The notes under the pieces were generated by a model. It was not told where the DNA came from. It saw only the letters and a program-made list of their open reading frames with translations, and searched no databases. From Amoebophrya sp. A120 (lineage: Eukaryota > Protista > Dinoflagellata), in contig CAJINV010000001.1 of the NCBI GenBank assembly GCA_905178155.1, forward strand, positions 5,716,495 to 5,763,727: 47,233 bases of DNA, written 5' to 3'. This document shows, one piece after another, positions 326-34,316 of this stretch. A program made the translations under genes and the position numbers. Positions within the stretch are counted from its first letter, which is position 1, and the number at the start of each line of letters is the position of its first letter.

Positions 326-583
326 AATGTGCGCCGGTTTGCCGGGGCCGCCAGGTTGCTCGCAATCCGCAGCCGACTGTGGCGATTTGGGCGCACGAGA
401 CTGCAACGCAGACGCGGCGCGGTTGTGCACACAAACAGCAGCGGCGTCCTTGCGCGCGCCGCGTTTTCGGTTGCATTGCAACACACTTTAGCACGAGCGA
501 AGCCGAAGGTTTCCCGGGAAACCTTAAACGACCTTGCCCGAGCGGAATCCATTGATTTCTGGGTCTCACAGCGTCACTTTCTC

Positions 584-2325: not shown

Positions 2326-2329
2326 AAGG

Positions 2330-3376: not shown

Positions 3377-3492
3377 GGTGCAGGCGCAGAGGTGGCGCCC
3401 GAGTCCGACTGAGGTGTAGGCGCAGGCGCTCCACAGCGCGAGCCGGGTCGGTAATATGTGTGAGAGCTGAAAAATACCCCCACGCCACAAGC

Positions 3493-5450
3493 AGCACGAC
3501 AGACATAGAGAAATGCATGACAGACATCAGTAAGAAAGTGGAAAAATGCATGGCAAATACCTAGAGCGTGGCTCTATCGTGCTGCTTGTGGAGTGGGGAA
3601 CTTTCAATCTGCATAGGGCTGCCGGCGACGCCACACCAACGGCGGAGCCTTCTGCGCGTGCCGCTTTTCCTTAACGCCCGAGGTTTTTAAATGCTTCAGC
3701 TAGCTAGGTTTTCCTTAGCGCGGCGCCTTGCGGTAGTTCGGATAGCTAGTGACCAAGCGGGAAACTTTGTCTATTTTGTGGTAGCTATCGACCCACTCTG
3801 GTGGCGGGTCTCGGCCTAATTATTTAGCTCCTTACCTCGTTCTAGCTATTCCTCTATCTACTTGCTGTATGTTTTTTAATGAAAAAAGCCTCTGCGTCAC
3901 TTATTTACAGCATTTTGCAAGGGTGGTTGAAAGATAGCCCGGCGCATTTCTGGACGCCTTCCAGACCCAGACAGCTTTCCACTTGATAAAGCGGTCGGAG
4001 CGCGGAAGGAGGTGCGCAAGAATAACAGAGGCAATATTAGAAAAAGGCAGCGCCTACATCAAAGAAAAAGACCCCGGCCGCTGCGCGCGACCATCCAACC
4101 CCCGGCCGGTTTCCGCCCGATGCCGCTGCTTTTTGCGCAAAAAGCTTCAAGCTTTCGCCCGGGACCGCGCGCTATGGCCCTCCCGGAACAGGCGGGGGGG
4201 CTGAATCCCGGCGGCATGTTGCGGCCCAGCCCGCCCGGCGCTTTTTGGCGGCTTTTCGCGAAGGGGCCACACCGTGCGGGCCCGCGTACTTGCCGGAACC
4301 CGAAGGACGGCCGTGCCACCGGGCCGCCTTGTTTCTTTTCAAAAACCTCCAGAATTCGCGCAAAAAAAAAAGCGCGCCAGAGCCCGCACGCTGTGGCCCC
4401 CCCGGGGCAGGCGGGGGGGCCGGGTCTCGGCGCTATGCTGCGGCAAAGCCCCGGCGCTTTTTGGCGGCCCTTGCGGGGAGACCATACCACGCGGGTTCGC
4501 GTACTTGCCGGAACCCCAAGGGCGGCCGTGCCGCTGGGGCTCTTTGTTTTTTTTCAAAATTTGCAAAATTCGCATCAAAAAAAAAAGCGCGCCCGAACCC
4601 GGATGCTATGGCCCCCCCGGGGCAGGCGGGGGGCCCGAATCTCGGTGCTATGCTGTGGCAAAGGCCCGGCGCTTTTTGACGGCTCTTGCGGGAAGACCAT
4701 ACCATGCGGGTCCTCATACTTGCCGGAACCCCAAGGACGGCCGTGCCATCGGGGTTTTTTGTTTTTCTTTCAAAATTTGCAAAATTCGCGCCAAAAAAAA
4801 AGCGCGCCCGAACCCACATGCTACGGCCTCCCCGGGGCAGGCGGGGGACCCGAATCCCGGCGCTATGCTGCGGCCGAGGTCCGGCGCCTTTTGGCGGTTC
4901 TTGCGGGGAGGCCGTACCATGCGGGGTCGCATACTTGCCGGAACCCCAAGGACGGCCGTGCCGTCCGGGTTTGTTGTTTTTCTTCCAAAGTTTTCCAATT
5001 TCGCGTCAAAAAAAAAAGCGCGCCCGAACCCGCATGCTACGGCCTCCCCGGGGCAGGCGGGGGGCCCGAATCCCGGCGCTATGCTGCGGCCGAGGTCCGG
5101 CGCCTTTTGGCGGTTCTTGCGGGGAGGCCGTGCCATGCGGGTTCGCATACTTGCCGGAGCCCCGAGGACGGCCGTGCCATCGGGTTTGTTTGTTTTTCTT
5201 CCAAAGTTTTCAAATTTCGCGTCAAAAAAAAAAGCGCGCCCGAACCCGCATGCTAAGGCCTCCCCGGGGCCGGCGGGGGACCCGAATCCCGGCGCTATGC
5301 TGCGGCCGAGGCCCGGCGCCTTTTGGCGGTTCTTGCGGGGAGACCGTACCACGCGGATTCGCAACGTAGGGACATCCCAAAGGACGGCCGTGCCACCGCG
5401 ATTGCTTGTTTTTGATTCAAAAAAGTGCTGCACTTTTGAAAAAAAGCGGA
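3493..5450. repeat. Right arm of the inverted duplication, with about 6 inverted copies of the ~216-bp unit
   Basis: Reverse complement of 584-2325 up to about 5233, followed by one further degenerate unit. Confidence 0.9.
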
Positions 5451-5670
5451 ATCCGCGTGCTACGGTGGCCCCAGGAAACCCAAACCCGCTTGATATCTTG
5501 CCCAAGTGCCACTTTCTCCCGCACCCGGTTGATATTCGCACCAAAGAAACTAAAACCCGGTCGATATCGTGATCAAAAAAACTACATCTGATTTGAGGTA
5601 TCAAATAAATTGTTTTTTTTTTGTGTTTCTGTCTTTTCGATATGGGGGGGGGGGATTTTTCCTCATGATA

Positions 5671-8600
5671 ACGACTCGCTATTGTTTATAATTCCCGAGG
5701 ACGAGCGATAATCCATCGCGATATCCACCACGTCCTCCTTCACCGGCTCTTCTTCTACTTCGATCTTGTTCATCATCTTTGGTGTGGTCGTCGGGAACAC
5801 GTGCTCTGGTTCCAAATCCCGTTCGGAAGCTGAAAAGGCGCTTTTGTTCTTGATCGTGTCCTATCAAATGTACAAATGTCTGGGTCTGGAAGAGTCATGC
5901 TGTTTTTGCACATAGAAAACCAAAGCGACACAAAGACCTCGAGGAACCATCCACAACCAAGAACCTTGGATAAGTGGAGTCCCCGAAGTCCTGGAGGTGA
6001 GATGCGAGGGGGACGCCTATTAGCTAAAGCACTAAAAATTAGCACTAAAGCAGAGACCTTTGGCACTAAAAAAAGCACTAAAAATTAGCACTAAAGGCAT
6101 GCTGTTTTTGCATGACGCCGAAGGTCTGGCATGGAAGCTCTAGCATCACAGGTCTCGAGAAGCTTCCGCCATGCCGAATCCGCATGACAAATCCCACATT
6201 TTGGTGACAGAAAGTGGGCAGCTTTTGCTACCTATGCATGAGAGATTTTTCTGTGTTCTGAAATGCGCATCACAAGTTTGTATTCTTCCAGACCCAGACA
6301 TATTTGCAATGCATATGTCCGCGATACTGGACTGTCGTTTCGTGTTCTTGATGTTGCTCACAAAGTCCGCGTGTCGCTGCGCGAACGCCGCGGCGTCGAC
6401 CCGCTCGTGCTCCGGGGTCTTCTTGTCCAGCGGACTGCTCGTGCCGATGCGCAGCGGCGACCCGGCGCCGAACACGCCCGTGTCCTTCCGGAAGGGCACG
6501 GAGGTCAGCACCCCGGTTAAATTTCGCGCAGACACGCTGTCGCGGTGGAACACCGACTTGACCCGGTTCCAGTGGGGAGACACGCTGGTGCTGTCCTCGC
6601 CCTCCATGGACAGTTGCCGGTGCATCTGCTTCGCGCCGAGATTGAACGCCTTGTTCAGCTCGCTGCTGTAGCCCTGCAGCGCGCAGAAGCTGGACAACAC
6701 CAAATCGTCCGCCATGTACCCGTTAAACAGGCGGAGCTTGACCAACCCCGCGAAGATCAGGTCCGTGAAGCAGATGCGGATCATCAGCACGTTGATTACG
6801 GCGTCCACTGCCATGGTGACCACGGTGCCCCAGAAGGAGTCCGCGCGGAACACCACGTCCATCACGGTTTGCGCCTCCTCGTAGATGCCCCAAAGAACCA
6901 AAGAGAGCCCCAGCCAGAACAGCGCGAACGCCGTGAACCAGGCCTTGGTCACCTTGGGCAACATTTTGGAGTGCAAGTGCGACATCAGCGTGCCCTGCAC
7001 GATCGCCTCGCGCAGCTCCACGGACTGTCGGGACTTGGTCGCGCGTCCGTTGCCCGGGGTCGCGGCCGTGGCACCGCTGCTGCCGTGGGAATCGAAAATG
7101 GTGGAGGGCAACTGCGTCTGGTCGTCCAAATCTTCGGTGCTCTTCATCTTGCGCATCACCCAGTTGCCGATATCCGTCATGGCCCCGCTGCCGCGCCGGG
7201 CCAGGGACTTCCGCGATACCATCTTCTCCTGCTGGACACCCGTCGCCTGGCTGCTGGCGCAGCTCTCCTTGCTGCTGTTGGAGTCGCGCTTGGTCAGCGC
7301 CATGGGGTTGTTGGTTACCATTTGCTGCTGCTGCTGCTGTTGCATGGCCTTCAGGTTGCCGCGACGGTTCACAACCGGCTCCTTCTCGGTACCCACCGCA
7401 GCGGAAACGAGAGTCTTCTTTTCGCTAGACAGCAGCGTTGGGATGGCGTCCTTCAAAAAGCTACCGGCGGAGGATACGGGAGACGGGTTACCCGACTTTA
7501 GCGCGGGGGACGTCTGAGTTTTGATGTTGAAATTATGTTGAAAAGATCTAGATTTACTTTGCACAACCAACCAAAAACAATTTTTGAACAGCGAAGAAAC
7601 CTCTGCTCATGGTCCTGTCGCGATCGAGTTCTCACCGACTTTCCCCTCTATTACTTAATCAGTTTTCTAACTTCTGTTTTAGCAAATTTCATCAGTACCG
7701 CTTGTTCATCCCGATTTGGCGTGACACCGGTTTTCTCCACCGCTTTTCTTCCCAGCAAACGAAAAGCTTCCAAAGACGCCAACGCCCGGAACGCAGCCCA
7801 GGAGGTGATACCGCAGTAGCCGACGTAGATCAGGGATCCGTACAGCAGCTTCAAGTTGCCCATCCCGTGTCCGATGATGCTGAGCACCGGCCACAGCATC
7901 ACGATCGCGAGCAAGGGGACCACGAAGATGATCATGTAGGGGAAAATTGTGAACGGCAACAGCTCCATGACCAATCTCGCCCCACCGACCACGCCCGGGG
8001 TGACCATCATGCCGACGGAAGCCACGGGCAAATTCAGCATGACGTCGATGAACAACCTCGCGGCGACGTTGAGAAATTCCGGGCGCTCGTCGCTGTCGGG
8101 GAACAGCATGTAGAACCAGGGCAACCAAGACAACACCACGGTGACCGTCAACCGCACGGTCAAAGCAAGAATGGTCCACTTGGCGGACGCCTTGTAGTCC
8201 CGCCAGTGGTTCAACGCCCGAATCGCGGCGTACAGGGTGACCGCGGCGACGAACAATTTGAAGATGTACATCAACGTGTAGAACACGGACAGTCTCCGCT
8301 TCACCTCAAAGGCCTGCTCCACCGTGTAGTCGTCGTTGGCACTCGGCGACGCGGGCGTGGTTTCCGCACTCACGGACTCCGCGGAGGCGACCTGCAGGTA
8401 CCGCCGAGCTGTTCCTGCTGCGTTTGAAGCAGAAACTTCCGTCAAAACCCGCCTCCGCGAGTCGCCTTCCGCGCCGTCGCCGCCGAAACCGCTGCCGGCG
8501 GTGCGAAACATGTCCAGCATGGACTTCACGTCCTCGTGCGTCAGGCTCTCCTCCTCGCCGGAAAACAGCGTCTTGCACACCTGCGGCAGCTCCTGCACCG

Positions 8601-11600
8601 CACCCATGGCGACGATGACGAAGGCGAGACCGACGAAAATCATCAGGATCGAGCGCCGGAACGCGAGGAAGGAGCGGATGGTCGGGGTGAGGTTCTTGTC
8701 CGTCCAGTATTACAATCAAAAATGCCCCACCCCCGAACTTGAGAGCATTTGTATTGCAAACCTTTCCAAATGAAACGTTCGCCCTCTTGCATCTTTCGCA
8801 TCACAGATTTCCGATCGTGAATAGCAAAAATTTGTATTGCAAAAGATCCCAGCAAGAGCGGCGCTTGTCATGCAAGCGATGCGACACACACCTAGACTCT
8901 GCATCAGAAAGGTTCATACTCCTTTCATGAAAAAGTTTTCATTTGGAAACTTTGCATCACAAATTTTTGCAACTTTGGGGGTGGGGGCATTTTTCCTCGC
9001 GATATCCAGTACTTTTCGTCCGGAAACAGCGGGAGTTGAATCACCTTCGTTGATCGGAAGAAGACGCGCGCGACGTGCATGGGCCACGCGTTCAACAGCA
9101 GCTTCCGCACGTTTGCGTCCTTCGGGATCCAGCCCGCGCACGTCCACACGCAGTCCTTCTTCCCCGTGAACCGGGAGAACAGCTGCGGGTTCTCCAGCCG
9201 GGCGAGAAGCACCGGGGAGGGGCGGTCGACGGACTCGAGGGAACTCAGATCCTCGCCCGCGATGGAGGAGGTCGACAACCGATTTCCCCTGGTGCGGCCC
9301 TTGTCGTGATTCGGCGTGCCGGGGCGGAACCAGGCCAATCCGGCGGAAATGAGTGTGACCAAGGTGGCGATGCCCACAATGGAAATAAACATGATTAAGG
9401 CGGGCGACATGCTGGACTCCGAGCCGCTCTGCGGGGGGTCGGACTCCTGCATCGGCTCGTCGACCGCGGGGACGACCGGGCTCACGCTGTACTGCGTGCC
9501 AACGACCTCCTGCAACCGACGCGAAGAGGAAGCTGGAGCGGCAGTGGGTGTGGAGGAGGTGATTTGCGCCACGGGCACGTTGTAGCACGTGTTGTACAGG
9601 GCGGGAACGCAAACGCCGACGCTGATCGTGTTTTCCACCGTCGTGGTCGAAGCAGCTGCTCCTGTGGACGTCAGCTGCCGGGCACGCAGCCGACCTCCGG
9701 CACCGGTGGAACGCACACACAAGTCCGCAATGGGGATCGTCCGCGCGGCGGTGCCGCCACCGTTCACCTGCGTGCAGGCCTCCGTCTGGTCGGTGAGGGG
9801 CAGGACTTGCGAGAAAAGCGAGCTGGTTTGCCCAGACTCCAGATCCGTCTCCTCCAGATCCACGCCTAAGTTCGGTGCGCCCGCCGCCGTGGCGAGCACG
9901 CGGACGCGAGTGCGCAACTGCCGCTCGAAGGAGAGCGGCACGACGGAGAACCCGACCTTCACCAACGCCGACACCGACACGTCCGTCGGCGCCTGCATAA
10001 CCTCGGTTTCATCCGGGTACTGCACACGCACGAAGGACTTCTCGCCCAGGATCGCGCAGCGCTCGTAGGGCGCACCGTACGAGGGGTCCTGGCCCAGCTG
10101 AAACAGCTCGAAGTCCTGGTCCTTCTCGATGCAGGGGTGGCCGACCGTTCTCTTCGCGTCCGCCGCCGTGTCCGGCACGCACACACCCTGGTCGTTGGCG
10201 CACATGTTCGCCGCGCACCCGCACAGCCCGCCGCGCAGACACTTGGCGTTGCGGAAGGCGTCGCAGGTCCGCTCGCCGGCCTCGTAGTTGCAGAAGGCCG
10301 CCGGCACGATTTTCGCGCAGTAAGACTGCTCCGTGGACTTGGTCAGGGACAGAGACTGCTCCATCTCGGCGTAGCCGCGGTCGAGGAACTTCTGCTCCAG
10401 GTTGCCGAACTCCTTCGCGATCGCAACCTGGCTCACGGCGGTAAGCAAACCCGTCCCCGCGTCGATTTCCGCCACGTGCACCTTGTAGGCGCTGTCGCCC
10501 GGCTTCACGAACGCGTAGAAGTCGACGGAGTAGACGTTCGTGTTCGGGTCTTTCAGTTCGTACACGAGACACACCTTCGTGCTCGCGTCCAACCCCCGGC
10601 ACAGCAGCTTCTGGGGCGTCAGTTTGTACTCCAACCGCAGGGCCGGCGCGTTCTTCGCGTACACCTGCACAAACACGGCGTTCTCCTCCGGCAGCAGCAC
10701 GGCCACGTGCAACACCAGCGTCGCGGTGGCGGTGACCGCGGTCGCCGCGGGGGCCACGTTTCCGTAGTAGGAAGCTTCGACCTCCACCGCGGTTCCAGCG
10801 GACGTTTTGGACGCGTGGGCGAGGAGAAACGAAGCGTCGTCCAGCGCGACGCAGGCGACGGAACTCGCCGGGTGCTGCCCCGTGACTACCGCCGGGCACA
10901 GGTTCGGGTTCTTCAGCTGCAGTTCCAACGCCTGCACGTCCGGCACCGAGAATTTGTTGGCCGTGAGTGAAGCGGGGGGCGCCAGCGCCGGCGGCTGGCC
11001 GGGCCGCAGCTGCGTGATCGCGGTCGCGCGCATGGACTCGTACGCCAAGCTCGAGCGCAGCACCTCCGCGCCCATGGCGCACTGCGGGTCGTGCGCTGCG
11101 CACTTGTCCGTCACGCACTTGTCGATCCACTCGCCGGCGGTCGTGGTCGCGCACTGGCCCGCGGCGGGGGTCAAACCCGTGGACGCGTAGGTGTCGACGA
11201 AGGTACGGTATTTGGACAGCACGTGGTGGTCGAAAATGTCGCAGAAGTTCACCTCCCCCAACTCAAAGCCGTTGCAGCCCTTACTGTGCATCACGCCGGT
11301 GGGCGCGGTGCACATGCTGTGCTCCCGTACGCCGCCCAATCGGAACCCGAGGGGGAAGGCTTTCACGATGTCCTGCTGCATGTGGAAGGAGTCGCCAAAG
11401 CAGTACTGCGGGTAGGAATACGGCGCGAACACCGGCGGTGCCGCGAAGGTGACCAGTCGGCCAAACTCGATGTCCAAGCGGTGCAGGACCGCGACGGCAG
11501 CGCCTAACGAGTGACCGGTGATGTACACCTGGTTGCACTGGGCGGAATCCTGGGCCAGCGTCATCCAGTTCGCGAAGTCCGGGTGCTCCTTGAACCGCTT

Positions 11601-14600
11601 GTACTCGCGGGCGCAGCCCCGCCACACCTCGTACCCGTTGATCATGATAGTGCCCAATTTGAAGGCCGGCTCGATCGGCTCCAGGTCGTCGTCGCTGCCC
11701 TGGAAGGAGATCGCACACAGGTCGTTTTTCTTCGAGACCACGGCGCAGTCCTTGCGCTGCTTCAACTGCAAAACGTTCCCGGCCGGGAACTCCGCGTCGT
11801 GCGTGAGGCAGAAGCGATTCTGCACCTGCCAACCATCCTCCGCGTACAGGTCCGTCACCGTCCAGGCGTCGTCGACCCGCACGTCCGTGGCGTAGGAGCT
11901 GCCGGCGAGGCGCACGAGCTGCTGCATCAAGGACCGGGAGTCGCCGTTGGCGGTCGTGAACAGCGACGGGAAGCAGGGGTTCTGCCCAGCAGCGCCCTTG
12001 AAACATTGCTCCCCGGCCGGACAGGTGATGTGGCGGCACTCGTCGTGCGGATCGGCTTTCCGTGTGGCGTCGAAGCCCTCGTTGTCGTTGAACCCGACCC
12101 ACAAGCCCTTGGCGACGTGCATCGCTTTGGAGTTGCTGTCCAACGCCGCGAGCGGAAAGACCTTCTTCGCACCCCCGGCCAACGTCGTCGAAACCGTCAA
12201 CCCGAGCACCGATTCCGTCGCCTGGAGCTGCAACTTCCGCCGGGGAGTTCCTCCTCCATTCGCGGCGGACACGGACCAACCCTCGGGTAACGCGATCGCG
12301 GTGGTGCTCCGCTCGACACACACCGTGAACTCGGACGCACCGAGGCACTGCTCGCTTTCCTCGGTCAGATCGACGTCGAACATGCGGTAGCCGTTCAGCT
12401 CGAACTGCACCCGGACATCGGAGTCGTCGTTGTGCTTCGTGAACTTCAGCTGCAGGGACTGTTCCTGCAAATCGTGCAGCACCTCCGACGTCAGCAGCTG
12501 CCGGTTGGCCGCGGTCACGGCGCCGAAAATGTCCACCTTGGCGTTGATGCTGCACTCCGTCGCGCTCGTGCAGGTGGAGTCCACGGAGAGAAACGCGTTC
12601 TCGCTCAAGACCGTGCAGGATTTCGCCGCCGTCGCGCTGTCGACAATCTGCTTCACGGAGAAGTTGTCCGCCTCGGACTGCCACGCGCGCAGCAGGCACG
12701 GGTGCGGCGTTTCCAGTTCGAACACCTGCATTTCCGGGGACTGCAAGCTGCCCATGGCCGTCTTCACCGTCGTGACCACCTGCGTCTTGCCGCCGGACTG
12801 GAGCTGGCGGCCGGCGGCCGCGCCGGCGACCAGCTTCTTCTGCGCGCAGAACTGCAGGCCGGCAAGGCCCAAATCAGTGCAGCTGGGTGCGTCGGTGTTC
12901 AGGGCTAACGCGGCGGGAGTGGTTTTGCCGAAATCGGGCGTGACTTGCAACTCAAGACCGGAGACCCCGTTCGCGAGGGATCCAACCACGGTGCCGGTCA
13001 GAATCTTACCAGCGCCCACGTCGATCACGACGTCCACGCGGAGACCCTTACCTGCGGATTTTTCATATTTCAGAAAATCATGCCCTCTGTGATTTACGAA
13101 GCAAAAAAAAATTTCATATCCGGGCCTCCAAGTTACAGTTTCCGTACGTACACTCAGGTAGAAATCTGAATGGTATGACACTTTGCTTATTCAAACTAAC
13201 CCTTACTTAGTACCTGCTTCCTGAAACGTGACCCCCAAGGACTCGGACAGCAGCCAGGGATCCGCGGTGGCCTTGTTGACTTCGCCCCAGCGCTGCGTCA
13301 GCGCTGCGTTGTTCCAGTCGGTCGTCGCGTACACCGGTGTGGTACCCGCCTGGCGGGCCACGCGGGAGTACAAAACCCCGTAGATGTGCAGGAAAAGCGC
13401 CATGGACCGGTGAAACAGGTACTCCTCCGGCAGCGCGCAGGTGACCGCCGGCGCGAGCAACTTCGCGTAGAAGTAGGGCGACTCGGCGTAGTGGGAGACG
13501 AACGCCAGGTTCCAAGTTTCGTACAAGTCCTTGTGCGCCTTGCTGGTGGAGATCTTCTTCGAGGGCACCACGGTCATGGCCCGGCCCGCGTCCGCGTTCT
13601 CCGGGAACCCGAGGCGAATGTCCTCCAGAACCGCCTCGAGGATGTTCACGCGGAGCGCGACCTGAGACACGTCCGTCTGACAGCACTTCTTACTGGCGTC
13701 GTCCACGCCCCAGGTCGTGGACGGCATGTAGGCGAGCACCACCTGCTCCATAGTCAGCGTCTTCGCGATTTCGAACGCGTTGAAGTACGACTTCCAGTTC
13801 GCCGGCCGGTTGTTGGTGACCGCGTTGAACACGTCGGTCAAAATCCCAGAACCGCCGTTCGCGTCTATTACATTGAAAAATGCCCCGACCCCGGAATTTG
13901 CAGAAGTTTGTCATGCCAAGTTTCCAAATGAAAGCTTTTTGTCTTGCATAAAAGGATTGCGAGCGTTTCTGATGCAGAATCTGGGTGCGCAAGGTGCCTT
14001 GTGCATAACAGATCCGGCTGCTGTTGGGCTACTTCGCAACACAAATTTGACCTGTTCAGCATGGAAAATTTGTGATGCTGAGATATGCAAGACGGGGAAT
14101 GTTTCTGTTGGAAAGGTTTGCAATACAAATGCTGCCAAGCTGGGGGTGGGGGCATTTTTCATTGTAATAGCGTCCGCGGAGATCGCCTTGGTGAAGCCGT
14201 CGAGCAGGATCGAGTAGTGCACCGCGTCCTTGATGTGCTTGTTCGTGACCGCCTCGTCGGTCCCGACGTTCGGCTGCAACGCCGGGTTGTCCAGCGCCTC
14301 GCACACGAACTCGGACAGAATCGGGTTCGAGGCCGCGCAAGTTTTCACCTGGTCCAGCCACTGCGTAATGTCCAAATTCTGCATCGCAGTCACCGCAGGC
14401 TGCAAAGAGGGGACGTTCAGCAACTTCATCTCCAGCATCATGCTGTTCAACAGATTCACGTCCAGTTGCGTCGCGCCCGCGGCTTGGATCCGGGCCTTCA
14501 CCTGGTCGAGACAGGCGACGCTCTGCGCGGCCGTCGGCGGGTTGTTGGTGGGCGTGGCGTCCACGACAGAAATTTTCGCGCCGGACCCGCCACCCACGAT

Positions 14601-17126
14601 CACGCACTGCTCCTGGTTCTTCGCGACCACGGTCAGCGGCTTCTGCAGGGCGGCCTTTTCGTTCACTGGGACGCCGGACAGACAGAAGTGCGTGTCCGGA
14701 ATCAACTTGTAGTCGTTCAACAGCATCGGCTGAAATTCCGTCGCGACGGTCTGGATCTGGTTCAGCTTCGCGAGCACAGTGCCCGCACCGCTGGAGGTTC
14801 CGGGCAAAACCAAATCTGGCACCGTGGACACCTGCAAGCCGTTGGCCACCGAATTCGTGCTCATTTTCACGTGCATCAACTGCGTGTCCGCGTTCTTGCG
14901 GCCGAAACCCGCGTAGACGGTGAGAACGTTGGTGTTTTCCAACACCGCGAACACGCACACCTGAACGACGTTGTTCACCAAACCGCACTTCTTCGTGTCC
15001 GCGACCAGCTCCGCGTCGACGACCGCCACCGAATTCGAGGTGGGCGAGGTTGTGTAGGTAACCACCACGTGCTGCTTGAGCTGTTGCGGCGTGGACAAGT
15101 CCTTCATCAAAAACGCCGCCTGGAAGCTGGCGTCCAGGGAAAGCGTGTTGACCCGGAACACCGCGTTGAACGCCTTTTCGGAACCGCTCCCGCTCGCCCC
15201 CGTCAGCAAGTAGTCCTCGGAGCCACCCAGGAAGGTGCAGTGCTGAAACAGGTTGTTCTGCGTCAGCGCCCCCGAGAGCGTCACGGTCTGCATCAGCATC
15301 GGGACGCTCGCGGTGTTGTCGGCCAGACAGGGGTGCGACAACGGAAAGTTCGTGTTCGTGTCGGTCAGCTTGTTCCGCCAGTTCAGCGCCAGTTCCGGCA
15401 GCTTGTTAACGCACCGCGCGGTCCGGCAGGGCGCGCAAAGCTGCTGCGGATCGTTGGCCGGCACAAGCACCTCGTTCGCGCAGCCGCCGTCCGTGGTCCC
15501 GTCGGCGTTCAGGATGGCATCCTGGTCCAAGTAGTGCGTGACGGCGGTCGACCAGTGCGTGAAGTAGCGGCACATCGCGAAGTTCCGGTCCTGCTCCTCG
15601 AACACCGGCACCAGCAATCGCGCGCCGCTCCACCCGACCGAGCGTTCGCAGAAGTCCTTGGCGGGCGAATAGGCTTTCGCGTCGCGCAGTTCCGTCGTGC
15701 CGAACTTGCAGACTTTCCCCGCCTGGTAGTCCATCTGTCCGTACGCGTCCAACGCGTGCACGTACTGCGTGATCTGCCCGTGCAACACGGTCACGTCGAC
15801 GTCCGCCGAATACGCGGCGGGGAGCGCGTACCGCACCGCGCACTGCACGCCCACACCGTCGAAGGTGTACGTAGGAACCGTCATGGCTTTGGTCTTTTCC
15901 AACCACATCGAGACCAGAGACGCCCGACCGCCGCCCTGCGAGTGACCTGTGGTTTTTGTAGAGAAAGTACTTATTTTATGTTTTTTCAAAGATATCAGTA
16001 CGCAGCAATTGTGGATTTGTGAGTGCAGGGAAGAACGACCACGTAGCAGATCCCTTTTCCGACAAGATACATGCACTTGCAATGCTGTTAGGAAAGAACC
16101 GATGAACAATTTGATTTCGCAGTAATATCAAGTTGTACCTGTGATGTAAAGCGTCTTGCCGGCGACCGTGGGCAAAATCGTTTCCACGAGCTGCTTTGTC
16201 AGCGGCCAGTAGCCTTCGTTGATCACGGAAAAGGTGTTCGCCAAGCCCAGCTGCATCCAATCCACGTCCTGCTTGACCAACAACCCCTGCGTCGCCGCGT
16301 AGAAGGCGGCTTTTTCCTTCAGATCCGGCAGTTTCGCCCGCTCCAACATCTCGTTCGTCAGCGCCTGCTGCGTGGCGTCCTGCCAGTTTTGCATCATCTG
16401 CGCCTGCAGCCGGTCGCTGAACCAGCCCTCGAACCAGAGAAACATGTTGTTGAAGTCGGCACCGGTGTGGCTGCCGCGGAAGACGATGACGGCCTCCGTT
16501 GCGGACTGGTAGACCGCGGCGGCGACCCCCAGCCCCGTCGGCTCGCCGTTCGTCGGGTTGAACTTGCTTTCCCAGCTGTCCTGCGCCACCTTGGTGCTCA
16601 TGGCCGCGTGCCACGCGGCGGTCACCGTCGTCTCTGACGCCGCCCGGTCTGCGGCGGTCTGCCCGGTGCCGTACAGGTTGACGCCGGCTTCGTACACTTC
16701 CCCCAGCTTGTCCAGGTACTGGGTGTAGTCCGTGGGCGGGTAGATGACGCGGTTCATATGGGCAAACGTCCGCACCTTGGCCCGCTCGTCGGCGAAGGAA
16801 ACCGTTTGGAGGTTCCGGCGCTTCTCGACCTCCTGCTGCGGCAAACGGTGCTCGATCACCGCCGGTTGGTTGTCATTTTCCAAATCGGTGCCGATCCGAA
16901 ACAGGTTGGTCAAGTGAAATCCGTTCACACTGCTCGCCCCGTGCTCCTCGTGCTGGAGCGCGTGAGGCTCCTCGGTGACGCGCAGGTTGATAGTGCTGGT
17001 GGTGGTCGGGTATGCGTTTGCAGCATTGGTGGTGGTCCAGAGCGGCAGCAACGCCGCCGCGAAGAAAGCGACCAGTGGCATGTGGGGCCACAAAAGCGGA
17101 GAGGATGTTTGTTTTTTCCTCGTCAT
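5671..17126 (-). CDS. Giant (>=3280 aa) predicted secretory-pathway membrane protein with two class-3 lipase (alpha/beta hydrolase) domains, Cys-rich segments and a multi-TM C-terminal part
   Basis: Exons 17126-16139, 15946-14170, 13860-13214, 13051-9005, 8702-7699, 7513-6316 and 5856-5671 join in frame. The joins use GT-AG introns (16138-15947, 13213-13052, 7698-7514) and three introners. Splicing creates LYITG|HSQGG. The second domain has SFQGS, YITGHSLG (GHSLG at 11502-11516), TFAAPPV, DIV and DHH. There is an N-terminal hydrophobic signal. If the element ending at 5670 is not removed, the frame stops at 5663-5665 (3284 aa). Confidence 0.82.
5862..6315. mobile_element. Introner family A (TIR core tgtctgggtctggaag), 454 bp including a nested insertion
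   Basis: Direct repeat tgtcc at 5857-5861 and 6316-6320. Near-identical to 20729-20978 apart from the insertion. Removal gives ...SIADTIKNKSAF... Confidence 0.93.
5911..6097. mobile_element. 187-bp nested insertion with a 15-bp duplication and an (agcactaaa)-repeat tail; retroposon-like
   Basis: catgctgtttttgca at 5896-5910 and 6098-6112. It occurs once in the uninterrupted paralog at about 20763. Confidence 0.75.
8708..9004. mobile_element. Introner family B (TIR core aaaaatgccccacccc), 297 bp
   Basis: Direct repeat tccag at 8703-8707 and 9005-9009. Highly similar to 39172-39477. Removal gives PDEKYWTDKNLTP. Confidence 0.93.
13866..14169. mobile_element. Introner family B, 304 bp, in the opposite orientation to the copies at 8708 and 39172
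   Basis: Direct repeat gcgtc at 13861-13865 and 14170-14174. TIR tattacattgaaaaatgcccc / ggggcatttttcattgtaata. Removal gives KAISADANGGSGILTDVF. Confidence 0.93.
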
Positions 17127-20289: not shown

Positions 20290-21173
20290 TGGAAAGTGAT
20301 GGTGAGCCGGCCTTCCTTGCCCCAACCCAGACCGGGGTACACTCGAATGTCGCCGTCACGTACCATCCGGGGTACTGCCAGCTCTACCTCTTCCCCGAAA
20401 ACATTCGCCTTGCAGGTGCCTTTTTACAGTGAAGGATAGAGACTTGACTTTATTTCCCGTTCTTCAGTGTTGTAAGTAGAAATACGGCAAACACGCTTAA
20501 GTACATTGAATTCTTTTCCAATGAAAAATCTTCGTTTCAGCTGTACAGAATCAAACAGCTTTCTTCTATCTGTACCTCCCAGCAGCGCCGTGTAGAAGTC
20601 GATGGGCACGTTTTCTAGTTTCAAGTCCTCCCCGTCCAGCATTTCCTTCTCCTCGTCCGCGAGACACACGACCAGCGTTTGCGAATTTTCGGTCAACTTT
20701 GTCCCGGGTTTCGTCAGCGGCGGAATGGTATCAAATGAAAAAATGTCTGGGTCTGGAAGACTCATGCTGTTTTTGCATGACGCAGAAGGTCTGGCATGGA
20801 AGCTCTAGCATCACAGGTTTCGAGAAGCTTCCGCAATGCCGAATCCGCATGAGAAGTCCCTCATTTTGGTGACAGAAAGTGGGCAGCTTTTGCTACCTAT
20901 GCACGACAGATTTTTCTGTGTTCTGAAATGCGCATCACAACTTTGTCTTCTTCCAGACCGACATATTTGCAATCCATAAATGGTGAAGGTAACCGACTCG
21001 AACTCGTCTTTGTGTTCGAACGGGCCGCCTTTGTACAGGACCGCCAGCGGTACCTCGGCGCGCAAAATGCAGGAAACCTCCACACCGTCGTCATCGACGG
21101 CACCGGTTCCGTCCCCGGTGAGGCTCTCCACCACGTGCTCCGCGTCAGACGCATCGACGACACTATTTTTCAT
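20290..21173 (-). CDS. Protein with a DnaJ/Hsp40 C-terminal substrate-binding domain; 5' and 3' ends uncertain
   Basis: After removing introner 20729-20978 and GT-AG intron 20575-20420 the frame reads VPLAVLYKGG...FTIPPLTKPGTKL...DGEDLKLENVPIDFYTALLGGTCKANVFGEEVELAVP...YPGLGW, which follows the DnaJ_C pattern. Confidence 0.65.
20729..20978. mobile_element. Introner family A, 250 bp
   Basis: Direct repeat aatgg at 20724-20728 and 20979-20983. The right TIR has a 2-bp deletion (ccagacc--gaca). Confidence 0.93.
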
Positions 21174-21278: not shown

Positions 21279-24200
21279 CTATGAACAATACACAGCAGCG
21301 TGGTCGAGCTGCGCCGCGGCTGCTGCTGCTGCATCGTACAGGTAGGCATTTTCCGGACTCGCCCACTGCCCGTACCACATCTGCGCGCGGTTGGGGGACT
21401 GGTAGCCTTTAAAGCCCGGGGCAGCGGAGCTTTGGTTCACGTGCGCGCCTGAAAAAGTGAAATAAATTCGGAATGCTGCTGGTGTTTCTTGTGCATATTG
21501 AAAAAGTTCATGCTGAGTAGAGTCTCTTCATTTAGATGTACTGTCTTACATGATACTTAGACCACGATTAAGGGCTCCGGTACTCGGAAGTCATACAGGA
21601 ATAGTTTTTCTCCTATAACACAGTACCTGGCGGCGCTGCTGGCTGTTGGAATAGCACACCAGGCTTCTTCGCGTTGGGGTCTGCGTGCGGTGCGGGCCCT
21701 TGCTGCATTGCCTCGATCAGTGTCGGCTTCTTGCGCTCCTGCTCTTCCCGCTTTTTCCGTCGAATCTCTGCGCGCTCCTCGTCCGCGGCACGACGCTTTT
21801 CCGCAGCCTCTTTTCTGTTTAGTGTATGGATGTTGCGCATGCATTTTCGTTTCCAGCAATCCAACGCGATGAAGCCACCAGGGTACAAATTTTATTGGAG
21901 GTTTGAACTACGAAACAGTTCTTATCCAGTAACTGCTTTTGTCATGAGGATTAAAAGTCGTTTTTGATCTTCCCAGTCACGATCATGGTTCAAGCCAGTT
22001 AATAGATACCGAAAGCGTTCGGCGGCTTCCCGCTGCTTCTGCCGAAGGGCCTTTTCCCGTTCCTTCTGCTGCTTGTGCAGGTCGTCCGGGTGCTCTATCA
22101 AGAGGGAACGCCCCCCCTCCCCATATCGAAAACAACGCCCGCGATGCTCTGCCTGGGCAAACCAACCAAGTACGTGCTGCAGTAGAGCACTGCACGCAAA
22201 TGGCGAGCCTAGGCCGGAGCCTTTGACGTAGGCGCCCAGCATGGTAGACGGCTGCCCTGTAGGCCTTACAGCGTGCCCAATTGCCCCCATAACGCGGCGG
22301 ACACACAGCCAGAGCCTGCTCGGCGGCGATGACCTTCCCGATGAGCCGGTGGCCGGCCTTCCGGAACTCTTCGGGCGTCTGGAGCAGGTCGCTGCTGCAC
22401 GGCGCGAAACCCGACCCGAAACAGGTTCGCAGCAGGTCGCTGATCATCGTGCTTTTTCCGGCACCGCCAAGCCCAACAAAGCAGAACAGCTTCTGCGGGG
22501 CCGGCGCCGACTCCCCGCACAACGCGGGGGAGATTATTGCCAGCCACAAGTCCAAGCCGTGGCGGCACTTCCACAAAGTCGAAGCGATCGCCCGCATGAA
22601 CCGCCTCCCGTCCTCTTCGGACGGCCTTAGCAGGATGGCGGCGGGTATGCCAGTGTAGCCGTTGTTTTCTGGCTTTTTGTCCACCGTCACAATTCTGCAT
22701 CACAAATCCGCAGATGGATGCGCTTTCAATATGGGGAGGGGACATTTTTCCTCACAATATGCTCTCGCCTTTCCTCCTGCTCCCGGAGAAATTCTGCCCG
22801 CTGATCCATGACTTCGTCGCGCCGCGCGCCACTCTCCTTCTCCGATTTTGGCTGCGGGTCCTGAAATATTATATATATGTAAGCACATTTTAGGGTTTAG
22901 GGTTTAGGGAAGTACAACCATGATGCGCTGCACTGTAAAATTCTACCACGCCTGTTTTTCAATATCTGCTTCTTCTCTTCCGACCTTGTTGGCGGTGCTA
23001 TTAACTCCTCCAGATGTTGAATATCAAAATTCACAAAATGATAGTACAGAAGCGGCTCCGGCAGCTGCTGCTCCAGCGGCGGGATACGATTCCACGCCCG
23101 CCTCCGGCGAAGTTCTTTGCCCGACGTCGCTCCCGTCCTCGTTTGGCTTAATGTCCTCGGCGTCTCCATTACCATGACTCCCCGGACTTGCTTCCTGCAC
23201 CTCTAACGACATTTTTTCGGGGAGGTTCAGTTGCACCGCTTTTCCGGCCGTGCCAGTGTTCACCTGAAAGCACAAGATGGAAAAGGAAATTGAAGAATGA
23301 ATGACTCACATCGTTTTTCGTCATATTAGCGGTATTAACGTTGACACCAGTCCGAGGCACATGAAATGTTGGCCTCTGAAGATTGATCCCGACTTATCCA
23401 GTGACTGATAAATTTAGATTCTTTCTCCAAAAATGAAACTTGTCGCCTTCTGGGGAAAAATCGGACAAAGGGATGAATGAATCTTTAGAAGTGCTATACC
23501 TGCAGATATTTCTGTGCCATGGCCGTGTTTGACTTCGCCTTTTTGCTCTTCTTGCTGGAGGACGCGGCGATACTGGCCCACGTAGTGGCCCCGTTGTCCC
23601 CCGTAGTTTCCGGCGACGCACCCTTGCTCGCAGCAGCCACGGGGTCCACACTTTCGCGCTGGGGCGTGGGGCCGCCGCCTTTCCGGCCGCTGGGTCCCTT
23701 TTTGCCCGCGGTCACGCTCTTAACTCCTTGTTCCGCCGTAGTCGCAGCTGTTGAGCCTGAGGTGGCCGTCGAGGCGGTAGTCGCGGTTGCAAGGGGGGCA
23801 GCAGCTGCACCACCCGCAGTCGCGGCCTGCAGCCCGGGCGCGGCGGTACCGTAGTGCTCGGCGCCGGCCGCGAACCACCCGGCGGCCGCCGGATCCGCCT
23901 CGCTGTTGAACTCTTGCGTGACCAACGCCATCGCGTCCTCGTATTCGTCGTTGCGTGCGTGGTGCTCGTGCGCGGCGCCCCCAGCGGTCGCGGTTGCGCT
24001 CGCCCCTGGCGCGTAATAGCCGCTACTCATGTGCGACGGCATGTAACCTGTTCAGCAACAAAGAAAAGGACTTATGTATGAAACTTTTCATGTAAACGGC
24101 AAAGAAAAAAACCATGCAGAATTATAATTGACAGTCGCGGTTACAACTCTCAACTCGGCACAAAACCAAAAGGAGCCATCAAATTTATATGGAAATCTTT

Positions 24201-25812: not shown

Positions 25813-28002
25813 TCACACCACCCCTTTGGGACTCGCCAACTTGACCGGTAGGGGCACAAACCACCGCCAGTTGATCGTCTTGCCGCTGCCGCAGACCTCG
25901 GCGAGGGCCCGCACGAACAGCCTTCGGCCGCCCGTGGGCTTCACCGAGCTCGTCGGCGGGGGCGGCCCCGAAGTACCACAGCACGAGACGAAGCATGGCC
26001 CGCTTCCGCACCACCCCGAAGACGTTGCGTGGTGAGAAAAATTTTGCCGAACGGAACTGCCCCCGCTGTCGCCACAGCAGGAACTGCAGATGGAGCTGTC
26101 GTTTGGGGGAACCACCGTACCGTCGCGAATGTACGAGGGATGGGTCGGGTCAATGATGCCCCCGTTGAGGTTGTAATTCCTCTGGTGCGCACCCGTCGTT
26201 CCGCCATACTCTTGGGCTTGCTTCTGTAGCTGTTCTTGCTCCGCGCGGGCTTTCTCTCGGATCTCCCGCTCTGCGCGCTTGGCCTGATGTGAAACAACAT
26301 TCATTTTAGTAGAAAGTGGTAGCAGCTCCTACACAACAAGAACTCAGCGTCTGTTTATCTTTGCGGATGCGATGGGATTGCATCTGGAGAAGCAAACTTG
26401 TGTGTAAAAGTCCCCAAATTCCTCTTTACCTGCAATTGCTCGATCAGGGTTTGATCGCTCGTTATCGCGGAGATTTGGTCGCAGCTCATCGCGCAGGTGA
26501 ACAACCCGAAAGTGGCGCCCTATGGATTGCAAAAATGTCTGGGTCTGGAAACTACTTGTAATGCTAAAAGTGAATGGTAGAACTACTCAAAAAGGCAGCT
26601 ATGCATGACAAATTTTTTGGCTCCCATGTCTTACGGATTCCGCATGGCAAACTGCGTTTTTGCATGACAGGTAAGAGGGCCTTTTCGTGCCTATGCAACA
26701 CAGATTCTCGAGTCATGCCAGACAGGCATGACAAACTTGCATTCTTCCAGACCCAGACATTTTTACATTTGATACGCCCATGAAAAGTACCAGGATCCCG
26801 CCCACCAGGGACCACTCGTCCGGGTTGCACAGCTCCCGCTCGTGCTTCGTCCACGGGTGATAAGAGTTCGAGCGTCGTCGGTTCGTACTGCTGGTTGGGT
26901 AGGCGCGATGCAGGGGCGACACGTCCCCGCTGCTCGTCCAATCCTCCGACGGCAACAGCCGTCTCCGCGGCGCGCTCGGATCAGCGGCCTGTCCCGTGAG
27001 ACTGGTGGGCTCTATCAGGCTGGTGGATCCGTGCGTTTCATACCCGTCTAGCTCGGCGAAAGACAAAGGCGAACTGGCGTCGTCGACGTGCGGTCCACCT
27101 TTGTCGTGCTGGCCATGATCCGGCTTTGTTCCCCCGGACGAAGAGAAGACGTGCTCGCCTGGCCCCGTAAGGTCCGCATTTGATGCTAACGGGGTTGCAA
27201 AAAATTCCCCGTGGTGTCCGAAGCAGTCGTAGGCCCGCAGTCCCACAAAGCCGATGGACATCCAGCTCATGAGGAATACGTAGAACAGGAATAAAAGAAA
27301 GTGCTTCTGGTTATACTGCCCCACGCAGTTGTTTACCCAGGGACAGTGGTGATCCATCTTCATGATGCATCGCTTGCAAACCTGAGTTTTCATTTTTTTT
27401 TATCCGCGTTGGAGGTTTTCGTTGTCGAAAGTGAGTGCCTTTTTCTGGACTTTATCATCTTTACGCGTGGGACAACACTAAAAACAAAAAGCCTAGATTG
27501 ATCGGAAGACCTAGGCTCGATTAACAATCACAGCAACAGCATCGTGAGTAACTTACTATTATACCGAGCAGTGGTGGGCCCGATTCGGCTTGCGCTGCTT
27601 GCACTTTTTGCACATGCGAATCGGGCCCGCCTCGACGTCAAAGCCGACGTCGACGGCCGACTTTGTGCAGAAGTCGTCCAACGCCTGCCCGCCCGCGGGG
27701 TCGTCGCCCACTAGCGGCACCGCGCCCGGGTCGGTGAGCATGCAGGTGAGGTGGGACCAGATCGCCATGCCGACCACGGCGAGGTAGAGCAGAATCAAAC
27801 ACCCCCGGATCGGGAGCGGGATGGTGTCGTAGGTGGCCAGGATCTGAAACGTGGTCGTGTACGCGCTGCTGAGCAGAATCAGGTAGGCGAGGAAAACACA
27901 GATCACCCCCGCGGGCTCGCAAATGCACCATATCTTGCTGCTCTTGTTCCCAGCACTGTCCTTCTGCGTGACGGAGGCGGGAAACACGGCACTCAGTGCC
28001 AT
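25813..28002 (-). CDS. DHHC palmitoyltransferase (ZDHHC3/7-like)
   Basis: [20 protein letters not shown]|[31 protein letters not shown] (intron 27564-27382). After introner removal [33 protein letters not shown]-terminal ALAEVCG..WRWFVPL. Confidence 0.93.
26521..26774. mobile_element. Introner family A, 254 bp; ends in the opposite orientation to the copies at 5862 and 20729
   Basis: Direct repeat cgccc at 26516-26520 and 26775-26779. TIR tgtctgggtctggaa / ttccagacccagaca. Confidence 0.93.
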
Positions 28003-32540: not shown

Positions 32541-33671
32541 CTATGCGCCCATCAAAATTTCAGGCTGTTTTTTTGTCGGTACCGCGAAGGTGTCGTCAAG
32601 CGACGTGACACGGTACACGTAATCCTTGTACACGTTCAAAATTGCCTCGTGCCGCTCCGTGCTCCTGTCCGCTAGGCAATCTTCGAGGAGCGACACTTTG
32701 TACCCGCGCATGAACGCGCCCAGAGCACTAGCCTGCACGCAGGCCGACGTAACCATACCCGCAATGAAAACTTTCTCAATTTTGTGCGTGCGCAACATTC
32801 CGTCGAGCCCCGTGTCCAGAAACGCGTCAAAGTTCGGCTTCTCCAGGACAACTTCTTTCGGGCCGGTCGAAGTGGGACAAGCGGATGAACCGCGGCTCTC
32901 TGCCCCGAATGTACTAGTAGAAGCATTACGCTCGGACATGTACGGCTCATCGTTTTCGTTGCCGCTGCTCGCAGGGACGATAACTGGGTCAACGCTTACT
33001 CGAAGATCCGCGCCCTCCAAATGTTCCTCCTGAATGCAGCCCCAAACCTTCTTCTTAAATTCGACATGGAGATTTTGACCTGTCTTCTCTATTTCTGCCC
33101 GACTGAGTGCGAAAGGCTCTGGCGTGTTCCTCACTCCTGCTGCAATTTTCTCCGGATTCAGTTCTGAAAAGAATTCCGTCCAGCGCGAGCCTTTCTCCGG
33201 TCCGTAAACCGCGCGCACGTGAACGATTAGATCGACTCCGGTTTTGGCTTCACCTACTTGGTCCTCTTTCATCGGAAGCGCACCCGCACCGTCACCCACT
33301 CCGGGCCTCAAAGTCCCTCCCTCCCTCGCGCGCCGTAGCAGCTCTTCAATTTTGCCGGGGAAGTTCGGGAATGCAGCCTGTATGTTGGGGTTCGCGGACC
33401 AGAAGTCCTCTTGAACGTCGATCAGCAGCAACGCGACTCTGGAAGGAGCAGCAACTTGAAGGCTTTGCGGCGTTTTTTCACCTGTGTCAAGGCCACTGGT
33501 GTAGGAGGTGCATGATGCCGGCGACTGCTCTGCACACAGTAGGGAAGATTCCGTCACATCGCCGTTGCCCCGCAGCCATCCGAAGCCCGCCGATGAAGTT
33601 GTTTTGTTGACAAAAACGCTCGCCACGTGGGCAACTTTCGCAAACGACAGAAACCGAAAAACGACCTTCAT
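32541..33671 (-). CDS. Isochorismatase / cysteine hydrolase family protein, single ORF
   Basis: ALLLIDVQEDF, LEKPNFDAFLDTGL, IAGMVTSACVQASALGAFMRGYKVSLLEDC (Asp-Lys-Cys triad motifs). Confidence 0.9.
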   Translation of the reverse strand: MKVVFRFLSFAKVAHVASVFVNKTTSSAGFGWLRGNGDVTESSLLCAEQSPASCTSYTSGLDTGEKTPQSLQVAAPSRVALLLIDVQEDFWSANPNIQAAFPNFPGKIEELLRRAREGGTLRPGVGDGAGALPMKEDQVGEAKTGVDLIVHVRAVYGPEKGSRWTEFFSELNPEKIAAGVRNTPEPFALSRAEIEKTGQNLHVEFKKKVWGCIQEEHLEGADLRVSVDPVIVPASSGNENDEPYMSERNASTSTFGAESRGSSACPTSTGPKEVVLEKPNFDAFLDTGLDGMLRTHKIEKVFIAGMVTSACVQASALGAFMRGYKVSLLEDCLADRSTERHEAILNVYKDYVYRVTSLDDTFAVPTKKQPEILMGA

Positions 33672-34316
33672 GGTAGAAGCAACTGCGAAGACTAAGAGAG
33701 CCTGGAATCAGTGTATGTGAACTTGTCGTCGCAGAAATAAAGCCGATTGGTTCATAGACAGAGTACTGATGAACACACGTCGTCAGCCAAGAGAAACGAA
33801 TCGTGCGCTCTGCTTGCGCTCGTACGCCGAATTTCTAGCGGTAGATTCAGAAAAAGTTCGGTTGAAAACTCCAGCGATCCAGAAACGGTGAAAGTTGTAC
33901 TTACGCCGAGACACACAAGTAGCGGCTCTTGCGATGCGTCCTTGGGGTAATTCTCTCTGGGGGACCAGAAGGAAAATAAATGAGCACTACCTGAGTTTAC
34001 TTTGGAATGGGAAAATCATGAAACACAAAAAAGACTTCTTCCTACCATGTGAATGCGTACATCTACTAAACCACTTCCCTAATTCGCGAAGGACCCACAA
34101 CTCCTTCCTTCCAGTTCCAACTACTTTTAGCTATTTAAGCACTTATTTCGAGCAAACGTGAGTCAGAGTACGGCGGACACTAGATGCAAAAAATCCACCA
34201 TCGGTTGCCCCGTCGAAAGAGGCGCGTATGCTTCTGAAACTTGCGAGGGCTAGCAATAGCATGGCTTGTATTCTCTAGGAAAAAAATCGGAGAAGCAAAA
34301 ACATCCACCCCCTGTC

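What the first reader, a model, noticed from the sequence alone, without database searches (positions are those of the whole stretch)
22096..22759. An introner carrying a viral-type D5/SF3 primase-helicase fragment: clue to the autonomous parent
Seen: a 664-bp element with family-E TIRs and a tgctc repeat interrupts a host exon whose frame is restored on removal. Its interior encodes ~125 aa with QKLFCFVGLGGAGKST...LL..CFG...RLIGK....E. Established: this pattern is typical of D5-like SF3 helicases of Polintons, Polinton-like viruses, virophages, NCLDV and P4-type phages, not of cut-and-paste transposases; Polintons have TIRs and 5-6 bp target duplications. Inference: these introners may be internally deleted, MITE-like derivatives of a large self-replicating virus-like element, i.e. 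virus-derived spliceable introns. The alternative is Pack-type capture of a passenger fragment. The >5.6-kb family-E-ended block at the window edge fits the first model.
Basis: partly seen in the sequence, partly recalled or inferred. Interest (0 to 1): 0.88.

Follow-up and report, generated by a model that had tools for sequence, protein, structure and literature searches.

The report
Spliced introner carrying viral helicase scrap
A 664-base mobile element sits inside a gene of what is likely a marine parasitic protist, is cut cleanly out of the RNA, and carries a 381-base scrap of a virus-type DNA helicase gene that its sister copies lack, so the scrap is likely cargo picked up by this one copy rather than a remnant of the elements' parent.

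Summary
The element (22096-22759) has TAT...ATA ends and a 5-bp flanking repeat. An RNA-derived contig skips exactly 669 nt (element plus one repeat), restoring a 712-codon host frame, with no GT-AG register. The interior ORF is a real D5-type superfamily-3 helicase piece: 38 hits among 1.84 billion proteins (best E 1e-12). A full-length relative matches D5_N/SF3 clusters, mostly Preplasmiviricota, and folds like poxvirus D5 and ASFV PrimPol. The 'parent' inference is not supported. In DNA contigs laid at 80% likeness the helicase piece (22305-22685) stays at background depth while both flanks are highly repeated. Sister contigs join the flanks with 73 other letters, giving an ordinary member of about 324 bp. 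A second element in the window also carries a private insert. The 5.6-kb block is a satellite palindrome with no helicase match. Best reading: Pack-type capture into one Amoebophrya-type introner, likely moved by a Ginger-like integrase (0.7). A helicase-bearing viral parent remains possible (0.2); no whole genome was available to test it.

The parts
22096..22759 (.). Introner-type element, TAT...ATA ends, inserted in a host exon and removed from RNA
22091..22095 (+). 5-bp target-site repeat TGCTC, left copy
22760..22764 (+). 5-bp target-site repeat TGCTC, right copy
22096..22135 (+). Left terminal inverted repeat (closest in window to the ends at 5670 and 31982)
   Evidence: blastn
22160..22304 (.). 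Ordinary family body, shared with many diverged sister copies (the longer sister pieces about 82-85% alike)
   Evidence: summed contig depth up to 7551 against 44 background
22305..22685 (-). Captured piece of a D5-type SF3 helicase gene: end of the D5_N-like region to Walker B, open frame, GC3 0.82, background depth
22451..22474 (-). Walker A motif GLGGAGKS
22316..22333 (-). Degenerate Walker B position (VIAAEQ, aligned to VIAFDE of P0009); motif name from established knowledge
22686..22759 (.). Right arm with subterminal motif TGTGATGC and right TIR, repeated in the genome
20067..24491 (-). Host gene of unknown function: 11 exons, 712 codons stop to stop when the 10 RNA joints are applied (8 canonical introns, 2 introners)

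Best explanation
This is one copy of a small, repeated, non-coding intron-forming transposon that sits in a host exon, is removed precisely from the RNA, and carries a piece of a D5-type viral helicase gene that it likely captured by template switching during repair of a break in its middle. Shown: ends, 5-bp repeat, 669-nt skip, helicase identity, and sister copies with a different short middle. Inferred: (1) the family is moved in trans by an integrase-type (Ginger/GingerRoot-like) transposase making a 5-bp staggered cut, possibly recognising the subterminal TGTNATGC motif common to all 12 elements; (2) a double-strand break inside this copy was filled from a virus-like element (Polinton-like virus or capsid-less relative) present in the nucleus, replacing about 41 nt by 381 nt; (3) the cargo is tolerated because the paired ends still let the host's non-canonical splicing cut within the 6-nt repeat and restore the original exon; (4) the piece is not translated and is slowly decaying.
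For: Helicase piece at background depth (44.6, one contig) while the flanks reach 7551 and 546 at 80% likeness; sister contigs in runs X1, X4 and X6 join 22272 to 22686 with 73 other letters; loose ends leave the window at 22300-22304. Element 5862-6315 equals its 94%-identical sister 20729-20978 plus a private 202-bp insert, so 2 of 12 elements carry inserts. A family profile finds no other helicase piece in the window (next E 3.1). Published: a TA/TA, 5-bp-TSD A120 family classed as Ginger (PMC12130899 Dataset file 8); GingerRoot has TA...TA ends and 22 of 77 elements carry gene fragments (PMC6839031); single-copy Pack-TIRs arise by gap filling with small internal gaps (PMC8277862). Splicing: 669-nt skip beside 8 canonical introns in X3, absent from X1; ends pair in the RNA fold (z -3.3, 0 of 20 shuffles). 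Decay: the fragment matches 22 of 32 conserved family columns.
Against: No donor was found: no second copy at 80% likeness in X1, no close protein relative (26-43% identity; none). A random capture hitting a viral helicase is a rare event unless such elements were common, though this case was picked out for looking viral. TIRs plus a 5-bp repeat also fit an rve-integrase virus. Host-like GC3 (0.82 against 0.60-0.85 in four host ORFs) suggests a long-resident donor. No transposase was seen in the window. A published A120 family (fam14) has a 'DNA/Maverick' peptide hit.
Confidence: 0.7

Rival explanations
1. The introners are miniature derivatives of a large TAT-ended Polinton-like or virophage-like element with an rve integrase and this D5 helicase. 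This copy is a two-step deletion or gap-repair product that kept an internal piece of the parent.
For: Nearest named relatives of the helicase family are mostly Preplasmiviricota. Such viruses carry TIRs and rve integrase or tyrosine recombinase (PMC10120064 passages). Gap repair would favour a template that shares the TIRs (inference). Published A120 rows show Maverick, integrase and 'viral' hits in other families. No mobilising transposase was found in A120 by PMC7789003. Both models need two template switches.
Against: The piece occurs in one copy only and no parent-like contig extends it at 80% likeness (contigs show presence, not absence). The long family-ended block is non-coding satellite. 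Polinton termini are AG...TC with 6-bp repeats as written in PMC6839031. Amoebophrya appears only in the screened-genome list of the stored, cut part of the PMC10120064 supplement. No TIR-bounded helicase locus was found in viral or metagenome contigs.
Confidence: 0.2
2. The donor was a domesticated host gene, or a host-adapted pseudogene, of D5 type rather than a mobile element; capture otherwise as in the best explanation.
For: Host-like GC3. One relative cluster (P0019) lies on contigs of 27-805 kb. No capsid or integrase neighbour could be shown for any family member.
Against: No second copy at 80% likeness, which a kept host gene should give. D5-type helicases are hallmark genes of viruses and related elements (PMC3671162 passages; Atlas taxa).
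Confidence: 0.07
3. The motif is a chance P-loop or belongs to a cellular NTPase.
For: Pfam gives only weak generic P-loop hits (E 0.09 or worse). PDB sequence search gives an ABC ATPase and Mcm7 at E 0.5-1. The profile of alignment A2 hits only small GTPases in PDB, at E 0.014 or worse. TIGR01613 is far below its cut-off (16-17 against 108.7 bits).
Against: 37 of the 38 hits align as one family over the whole piece, not just the P-loop (P0033 is a spurious repeat protein). TIGR01613 is the only NCBIfam family hit by that alignment (13 of 22 members, best 5.6e-11). The fold of P0016 matches ASFV PrimPol and poxvirus D5/E5 (E 7e-11).
Confidence: 0.02

Closest known systems
Amoebophrya A120 introner elements (Farhat et al. 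2021, PMC7789003; section 10 and passages read)
   Same: TAT start, seven variable bases, then AAA; inverted repeats; short direct repeats overlapping the exon borders; non-canonical splice ends; many families in exons.
   Different: No coding cargo of viral type is described in the passages read ('helicase' 0 occurrences in the main text); the mobiliser was left unknown. Here the repeat is 5 bp in all 12 elements (the scan required it).
Ginger-like A120 family 38 and GingerRoot (PMC12130899 passages and Dataset file 8 parts 15-17; PMC6839031 passages)
   Same: TA...TA termini, TIRs; 5-bp repeat for family 38; GingerRoot elements capture gene fragments.
   Different: No integrase-like ORF in this element; GingerRoot has 6-bp repeats and is kb-sized; the cargo here is virus-type and the element is spliced.
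Single-copy Pack-TIRs / Pack-MULEs (PMC8277862 passages)
   Same: One copy of a TIR family with a small internal gap filled by foreign coding DNA.
   Different: Cargo is a viral replication gene piece, not a host gene; no donor found; the carrier is an intron.
D5-like primase-helicases of Polinton-like viruses, virophages, NCLDV and P4-type phages
   Same: D5_N-like region followed by Walker A, Walker B and an SF3 fold in full-length relatives.
   Different: The closest family (P0016, P0037, P0062, P0063) has no Pfam hit above cut-off and carries a C-terminal polymerase-A-like-looking domain, the reverse order of the TVpol-S3H fusion in PMC3671162.
Introners inside viral elements (Gozashti and Corbett-Detig 2025, PMC12166617; part 1 of 5 read)
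   Same: Introners and dsDNA virus-like elements meet in dinoflagellate genomes.
   Different: There the introner inserts into the virus; here viral sequence lies inside the introner.

Membership tests
Amoebophrya-type introner element | Inverted repeats at both ends starting TAT, then 7 variable bases, then AAA | tested here: met
   Right end TATTGTGAGGAAAAA fits fully; left end TATCAAGAGGGAAC has two of the three A's; 16 of 25 identical (definition)
Amoebophrya-type introner element | 3-5 nt direct repeat at the exon/intron borders | tested here: met
   TGCTC on both sides
Amoebophrya-type introner element | Removed from mRNA, non-canonical ends | tested here: met
   669-nt skip in run X3, one contig, depth 65; none of 7 registers is GT-AG
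Amoebophrya-type introner element | Repeated family | tested here: met
   Body and arms matched by many contigs of X1 (77 laid)
D5-like SF3 helicase (fragment) | D5_N-like region preceding the ATPase | tested here: met
   Fragment aligns to P0016 residues 259-367; P0016 matches D5_N clusters (score 0.97) and D5 structures. Indirect, through the homologue
D5-like SF3 helicase (fragment) | Walker A | tested here: met
   GLGGAGKS in the family's conserved columns
D5-like SF3 helicase (fragment) | Walker B | tested here: inconclusive
   Position present but degenerate, AAEQ against AFDE
D5-like SF3 helicase (fragment) | Motif C and arginine finger (needed for an active enzyme) | tested here: not met
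   The piece ends at Walker B; the downstream DNA is repeated introner body. It is a fragment, not an enzyme
Polinton/Maverick or Polinton-like virus derivative | Polinton termini AG...TC and 6-bp target repeat | tested here: not met
   TA...TA and 5 bp (definition as written in PMC6839031). Termini of Polinton-like viruses vary (recalled), so this does not exclude them
Polinton/Maverick or Polinton-like virus derivative | A parent with the same TIRs carrying integrase or recombinase, polymerase/helicase and capsid genes | not testable with these tools
   No whole genome held; none seen in the window or in DNA contigs at 80%
Ginger/GingerRoot-like non-autonomous element | TA...TA termini with TIRs | tested here: met
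Ginger/GingerRoot-like non-autonomous element | Cognate integrase-type transposase gene with the same TIRs | not testable with these tools
   No genome; none among the 18 + 15 window ORFs scanned
Pack-type TIR element | Foreign coding piece inside an otherwise ordinary family member | tested here: met
   Sisters join the flanks with 73 other letters
Pack-type TIR element | Identifiable donor locus elsewhere in the genome | tested here: inconclusive
   None at 80% likeness in X1; contig sets are filtered, so absence is weak

The most novel reading that the evidence does not exclude
The thousands of TAT-ended, 5-bp-repeat introners of this lineage are miniature derivatives of an undescribed self-replicating virus-like element that encodes an integrase and a D5 helicase fused to a C-terminal polymerase-A-like domain. 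This copy would be a fossil of that parent, making these introns virus-derived and solving the missing-mobiliser problem in Amoebophrya.
Probability: 0.2. Interest if true: 0.85.

Novelty: new variant of a known kind. Interest (0 to 1): 0.42.

Why it matters
Under the best reading it shows that intron-forming transposons can carry foreign coding DNA, here viral, into expressed genes at no cost because the whole unit is spliced out. It also leaves a molecular trace of a virus-like element in a lineage for which the papers read name none. It gives a concrete protein query for a direct test of an open question: what moves the Amoebophrya introners. If the parent model were true, it would be a virus-to-intron route that I did not find described (paper searches). 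A single captured fragment is by itself a modest result.

Tried and rejected
Searches used reference 22269-22751, which is a different reading frame; their blank results are void and were redone in the right frame. PHROGs in the right frame gave only weak hits (best E 0.001-0.007 to a family labelled terminase small subunit; primase families at E 0.06-0.6). The single-sequence fold of the fragment was poor (pLDDT 51) and its viral-library search was meaningless. Word-index protein searches found no relative, longer or near-length. Viral-contig scans found no family member; one search returned only a distant 25%-identical match (L003), not followed up beyond listing ORFs. The TIR pattern is absent from viral contigs. 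Metagenome scans gave nothing and one 2-kb contig, L004, whose helicase fragment sits among satellites with no gene context. An apparent continuation of the helicase (CPPRYG...WARC) below 22304 was rejected: no profile support, and the DNA is repeated body whose sisters read differently. The profile E of 4e-38 is circular, since its members were chosen by similarity to the fragment; it was used only to look for other pieces. The tree failed at display and was not rerun. Earlier-findings look-ups returned nothing. The stop-codon estimate (P(no stop) 0.53, 0.29, 0.10 at 5, 10, 18% divergence) is too weak to date the capture.

Full report
Observation. The element spans 22096-22759, begins TAT and ends ATA, has inverted ends 16 of 25 identical and TGCTC directly outside on both sides. 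The same rule finds 12 elements in the window, against 0.02 on average in 100 simulated sequences. A subterminal motif, TGTNATGC or TGTATTGC, occurs 43 of 48 times inside these 12 elements, which cover 8% of the window (the motif was chosen after looking at the elements). This anatomy matches the published A120-type introners of the parasitic dinoflagellate Amoebophrya: TAT, seven variable bases, AAA, short direct repeats, non-canonical ends (PMC7789003). The organism is therefore inferred, not shown.

Splicing. The host gene is on the minus strand. Removing 664 nt shifts its frame; removing 669 nt restores it. In run X3, contigs skip 8 canonical GT-AG introns, the 255-nt unit at 20723/20979 and exactly 669 nt at 22090/22760 (depth 65, one contig, 24 letters on the short side); an unspliced contig has depth 5.9. 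Run X1 shows none of these skips and behaves as DNA. X3 is only guessed to be RNA by its record, but the canonical skips show it. The ten joints give a 712-codon frame; keeping the element breaks it (longest 447). None of the 7 possible registers is GT-AG, so spliceosomal chemistry is not shown. The two ends pair in the predicted RNA fold (z -3.3, 0 of 20 shuffles). The host protein has no confident family.

The cargo. The frame 22316-22690 has GC3 0.82, within the range of four host ORFs (0.60-0.85). Library scans are weak: TIGR01613 (P4-family primase) is the best NCBIfam hit at E 0.002-0.005, and Pfam, PHROGs and PDB sequences give only generic P-loop hits. A full phmmer search finds 38 proteins at E up to 0.001 among 1.84 billion, 26-43% identical, best 1.3e-12, spanning residues 3-123; one, P0033, is spurious. 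They form a family with Walker A, Walker B and downstream motifs; 13 of 22 aligned members hit TIGR01613 and nothing else. Full-length member P0016 maps to D5_N/DUF5906 clusters at score 0.97, commonest taxon Preplasmiviricota. Its model (mean pLDDT 63.5, helicase core mostly 80-90) matches ASFV PrimPol and poxvirus D5/E5 (E 7e-11). The fragment runs from the end of the D5_N-like region to a degenerate Walker B and matches 22 of 32 conserved columns. It cannot be an enzyme, and it lies inside an intron. The ten clusters looked up come from ENA, Logan and JGI and are unnamed or 'hypothetical', so the element that carries this family is unknown.

Parent or passenger. I laid 22140-22720 at 80% likeness. 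In X1, 22160-22299 is matched by many contigs (summed depth up to 7551 against 44) and so is 22686 onward (434-546), but 22320-22679 stays at 44.6 on a single contig. Summed depth is not a copy number, and X1 may be the window's own source. One contig each in X1, X4 and X6 joins 22272 to 22686 with 73 other letters, and loose ends leave the window at 22300-22304. An ordinary member is thus about 324 bp, like the 279-306-bp relatives in the window, and in this copy about 41 central bases are replaced by 381 bases of helicase gene. A second element, 5862-6315, equals its 94%-identical sister plus a private 202-bp insert, so these elements do take up filler DNA. The block at 1-5670 ends in a family TIR within a host exon and has no partner end in the window. 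It is a palindrome of 216-bp and 261-bp tandem repeats; 15 of its ORFs give no credible Pfam hit, and the family profile finds nothing there. It therefore does not support a viral parent.

Mechanism. Shown: insertion with a 5-bp repeat, exact removal from RNA, private viral-type cargo. Inferred: mobilisation in trans by an integrase-type transposase, as proposed in print for A120 family 38 (Ginger, TA/TA termini, 5-bp TSD; PMC12130899 Dataset file 8), and capture by gap filling, as for single-copy Pack-TIRs (PMC8277862) and GingerRoot (PMC6839031). Against this, no donor was found at 80% likeness or among proteins. TIRs with 5-bp repeats also suit an rve-integrase virus, gap repair would prefer a TIR-sharing template, and in the 50 of 58 A120 rows read one family has a Maverick peptide hit and one is marked viral. 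A parent whose helicase is under 80% identical would be invisible to my read laying. With no genome held this could not be tested. I give capture 0.7, viral parent 0.2, domesticated donor 0.07, chance 0.02.

What was read. PMC7789003: section 10 and passages. PMC12130899: passages, a supplement word search and file 8 parts 15-17. PMC12166617: part 1 of 5. PMC12721341, PMC10120064, PMC6839031, PMC8277862, PMC3671162: passages, plus a supplement word search for PMC10120064. Other papers: search listings only. In these I found introners inside viral elements, but no report of viral helicase DNA inside an introner or of introners derived from such viruses (searches).

Verdict. A real and well-supported feature, best filed as a Pack-type variant of a known introner kind with unusual viral cargo. 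The headline claim, a clue to the autonomous parent, is weakened by the copy analysis but remains directly testable with one genome-wide search.

Noticed in passing
proteins P0016, P0037, P0062, P0063, P0064: An apparently unnamed family: D5_N-like plus SF3 helicase followed by a C-terminal domain of about 270 aa. That domain matches unnamed viral clusters (score 0.96, TM 0.75-0.89) and, as a lead only, DNA_pol_A (0.82). The order is the reverse of the TVpol-S3H fusion; PMC10120064 mentions helicases fused to an unknown domain. Its carrier element is unknown.
   Followed up: partly
window 1-5670: Element of more than 5.6 kb inserted in a host exon: a near-perfect palindrome of 216-bp satellites around four 261-bp hairpin units that contain the family's inner TIR motif CCCCATATCGAAAC, with a nested inverted pair of another family's TIR at 1834 and 3988. 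It resembles the 5,627-bp palindromic, satellite-bearing context listed for A120 fam25. Whether it is spliced was not tested.
   Followed up: partly
window 5896-6097: Private 202-bp insert in element 5862-6315, with a roughly 18-nt repeat at its ends and short 12-13-nt tandem repeats near its 3' end; source unknown.
   Followed up: partly
window, 12 elements from 5862 to 40422: Four unrelated-looking TIR families share TAT ends, 5-bp repeats and the subterminal motif TGTNATGC, which suggests one mobilising enzyme for all of them.
   Followed up: partly
window 41268-41416: Probable 13th, older element with TAT...ATA ends and a 5-bp repeat with mismatches.
   Followed up: no
window 22887-22909: Three copies of the telomere-like repeat TTTAGGG inside a canonical intron.
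   Followed up: no
window 8928-13190 and 13914-16127 (minus strand): Long ORFs with weak Lipase_3 hits; an isochorismatase-domain ORF at 32544-33707 and a DHHC palmitoyltransferase ORF at 26716-27399.
   Followed up: no
L004 1129-1850: Another truncated member of the helicase family, starting near Walker A, wedged between a 24-bp tandem array and palindromic repeats; a possible parallel case of a fragment in repeat DNA.
   Followed up: partly
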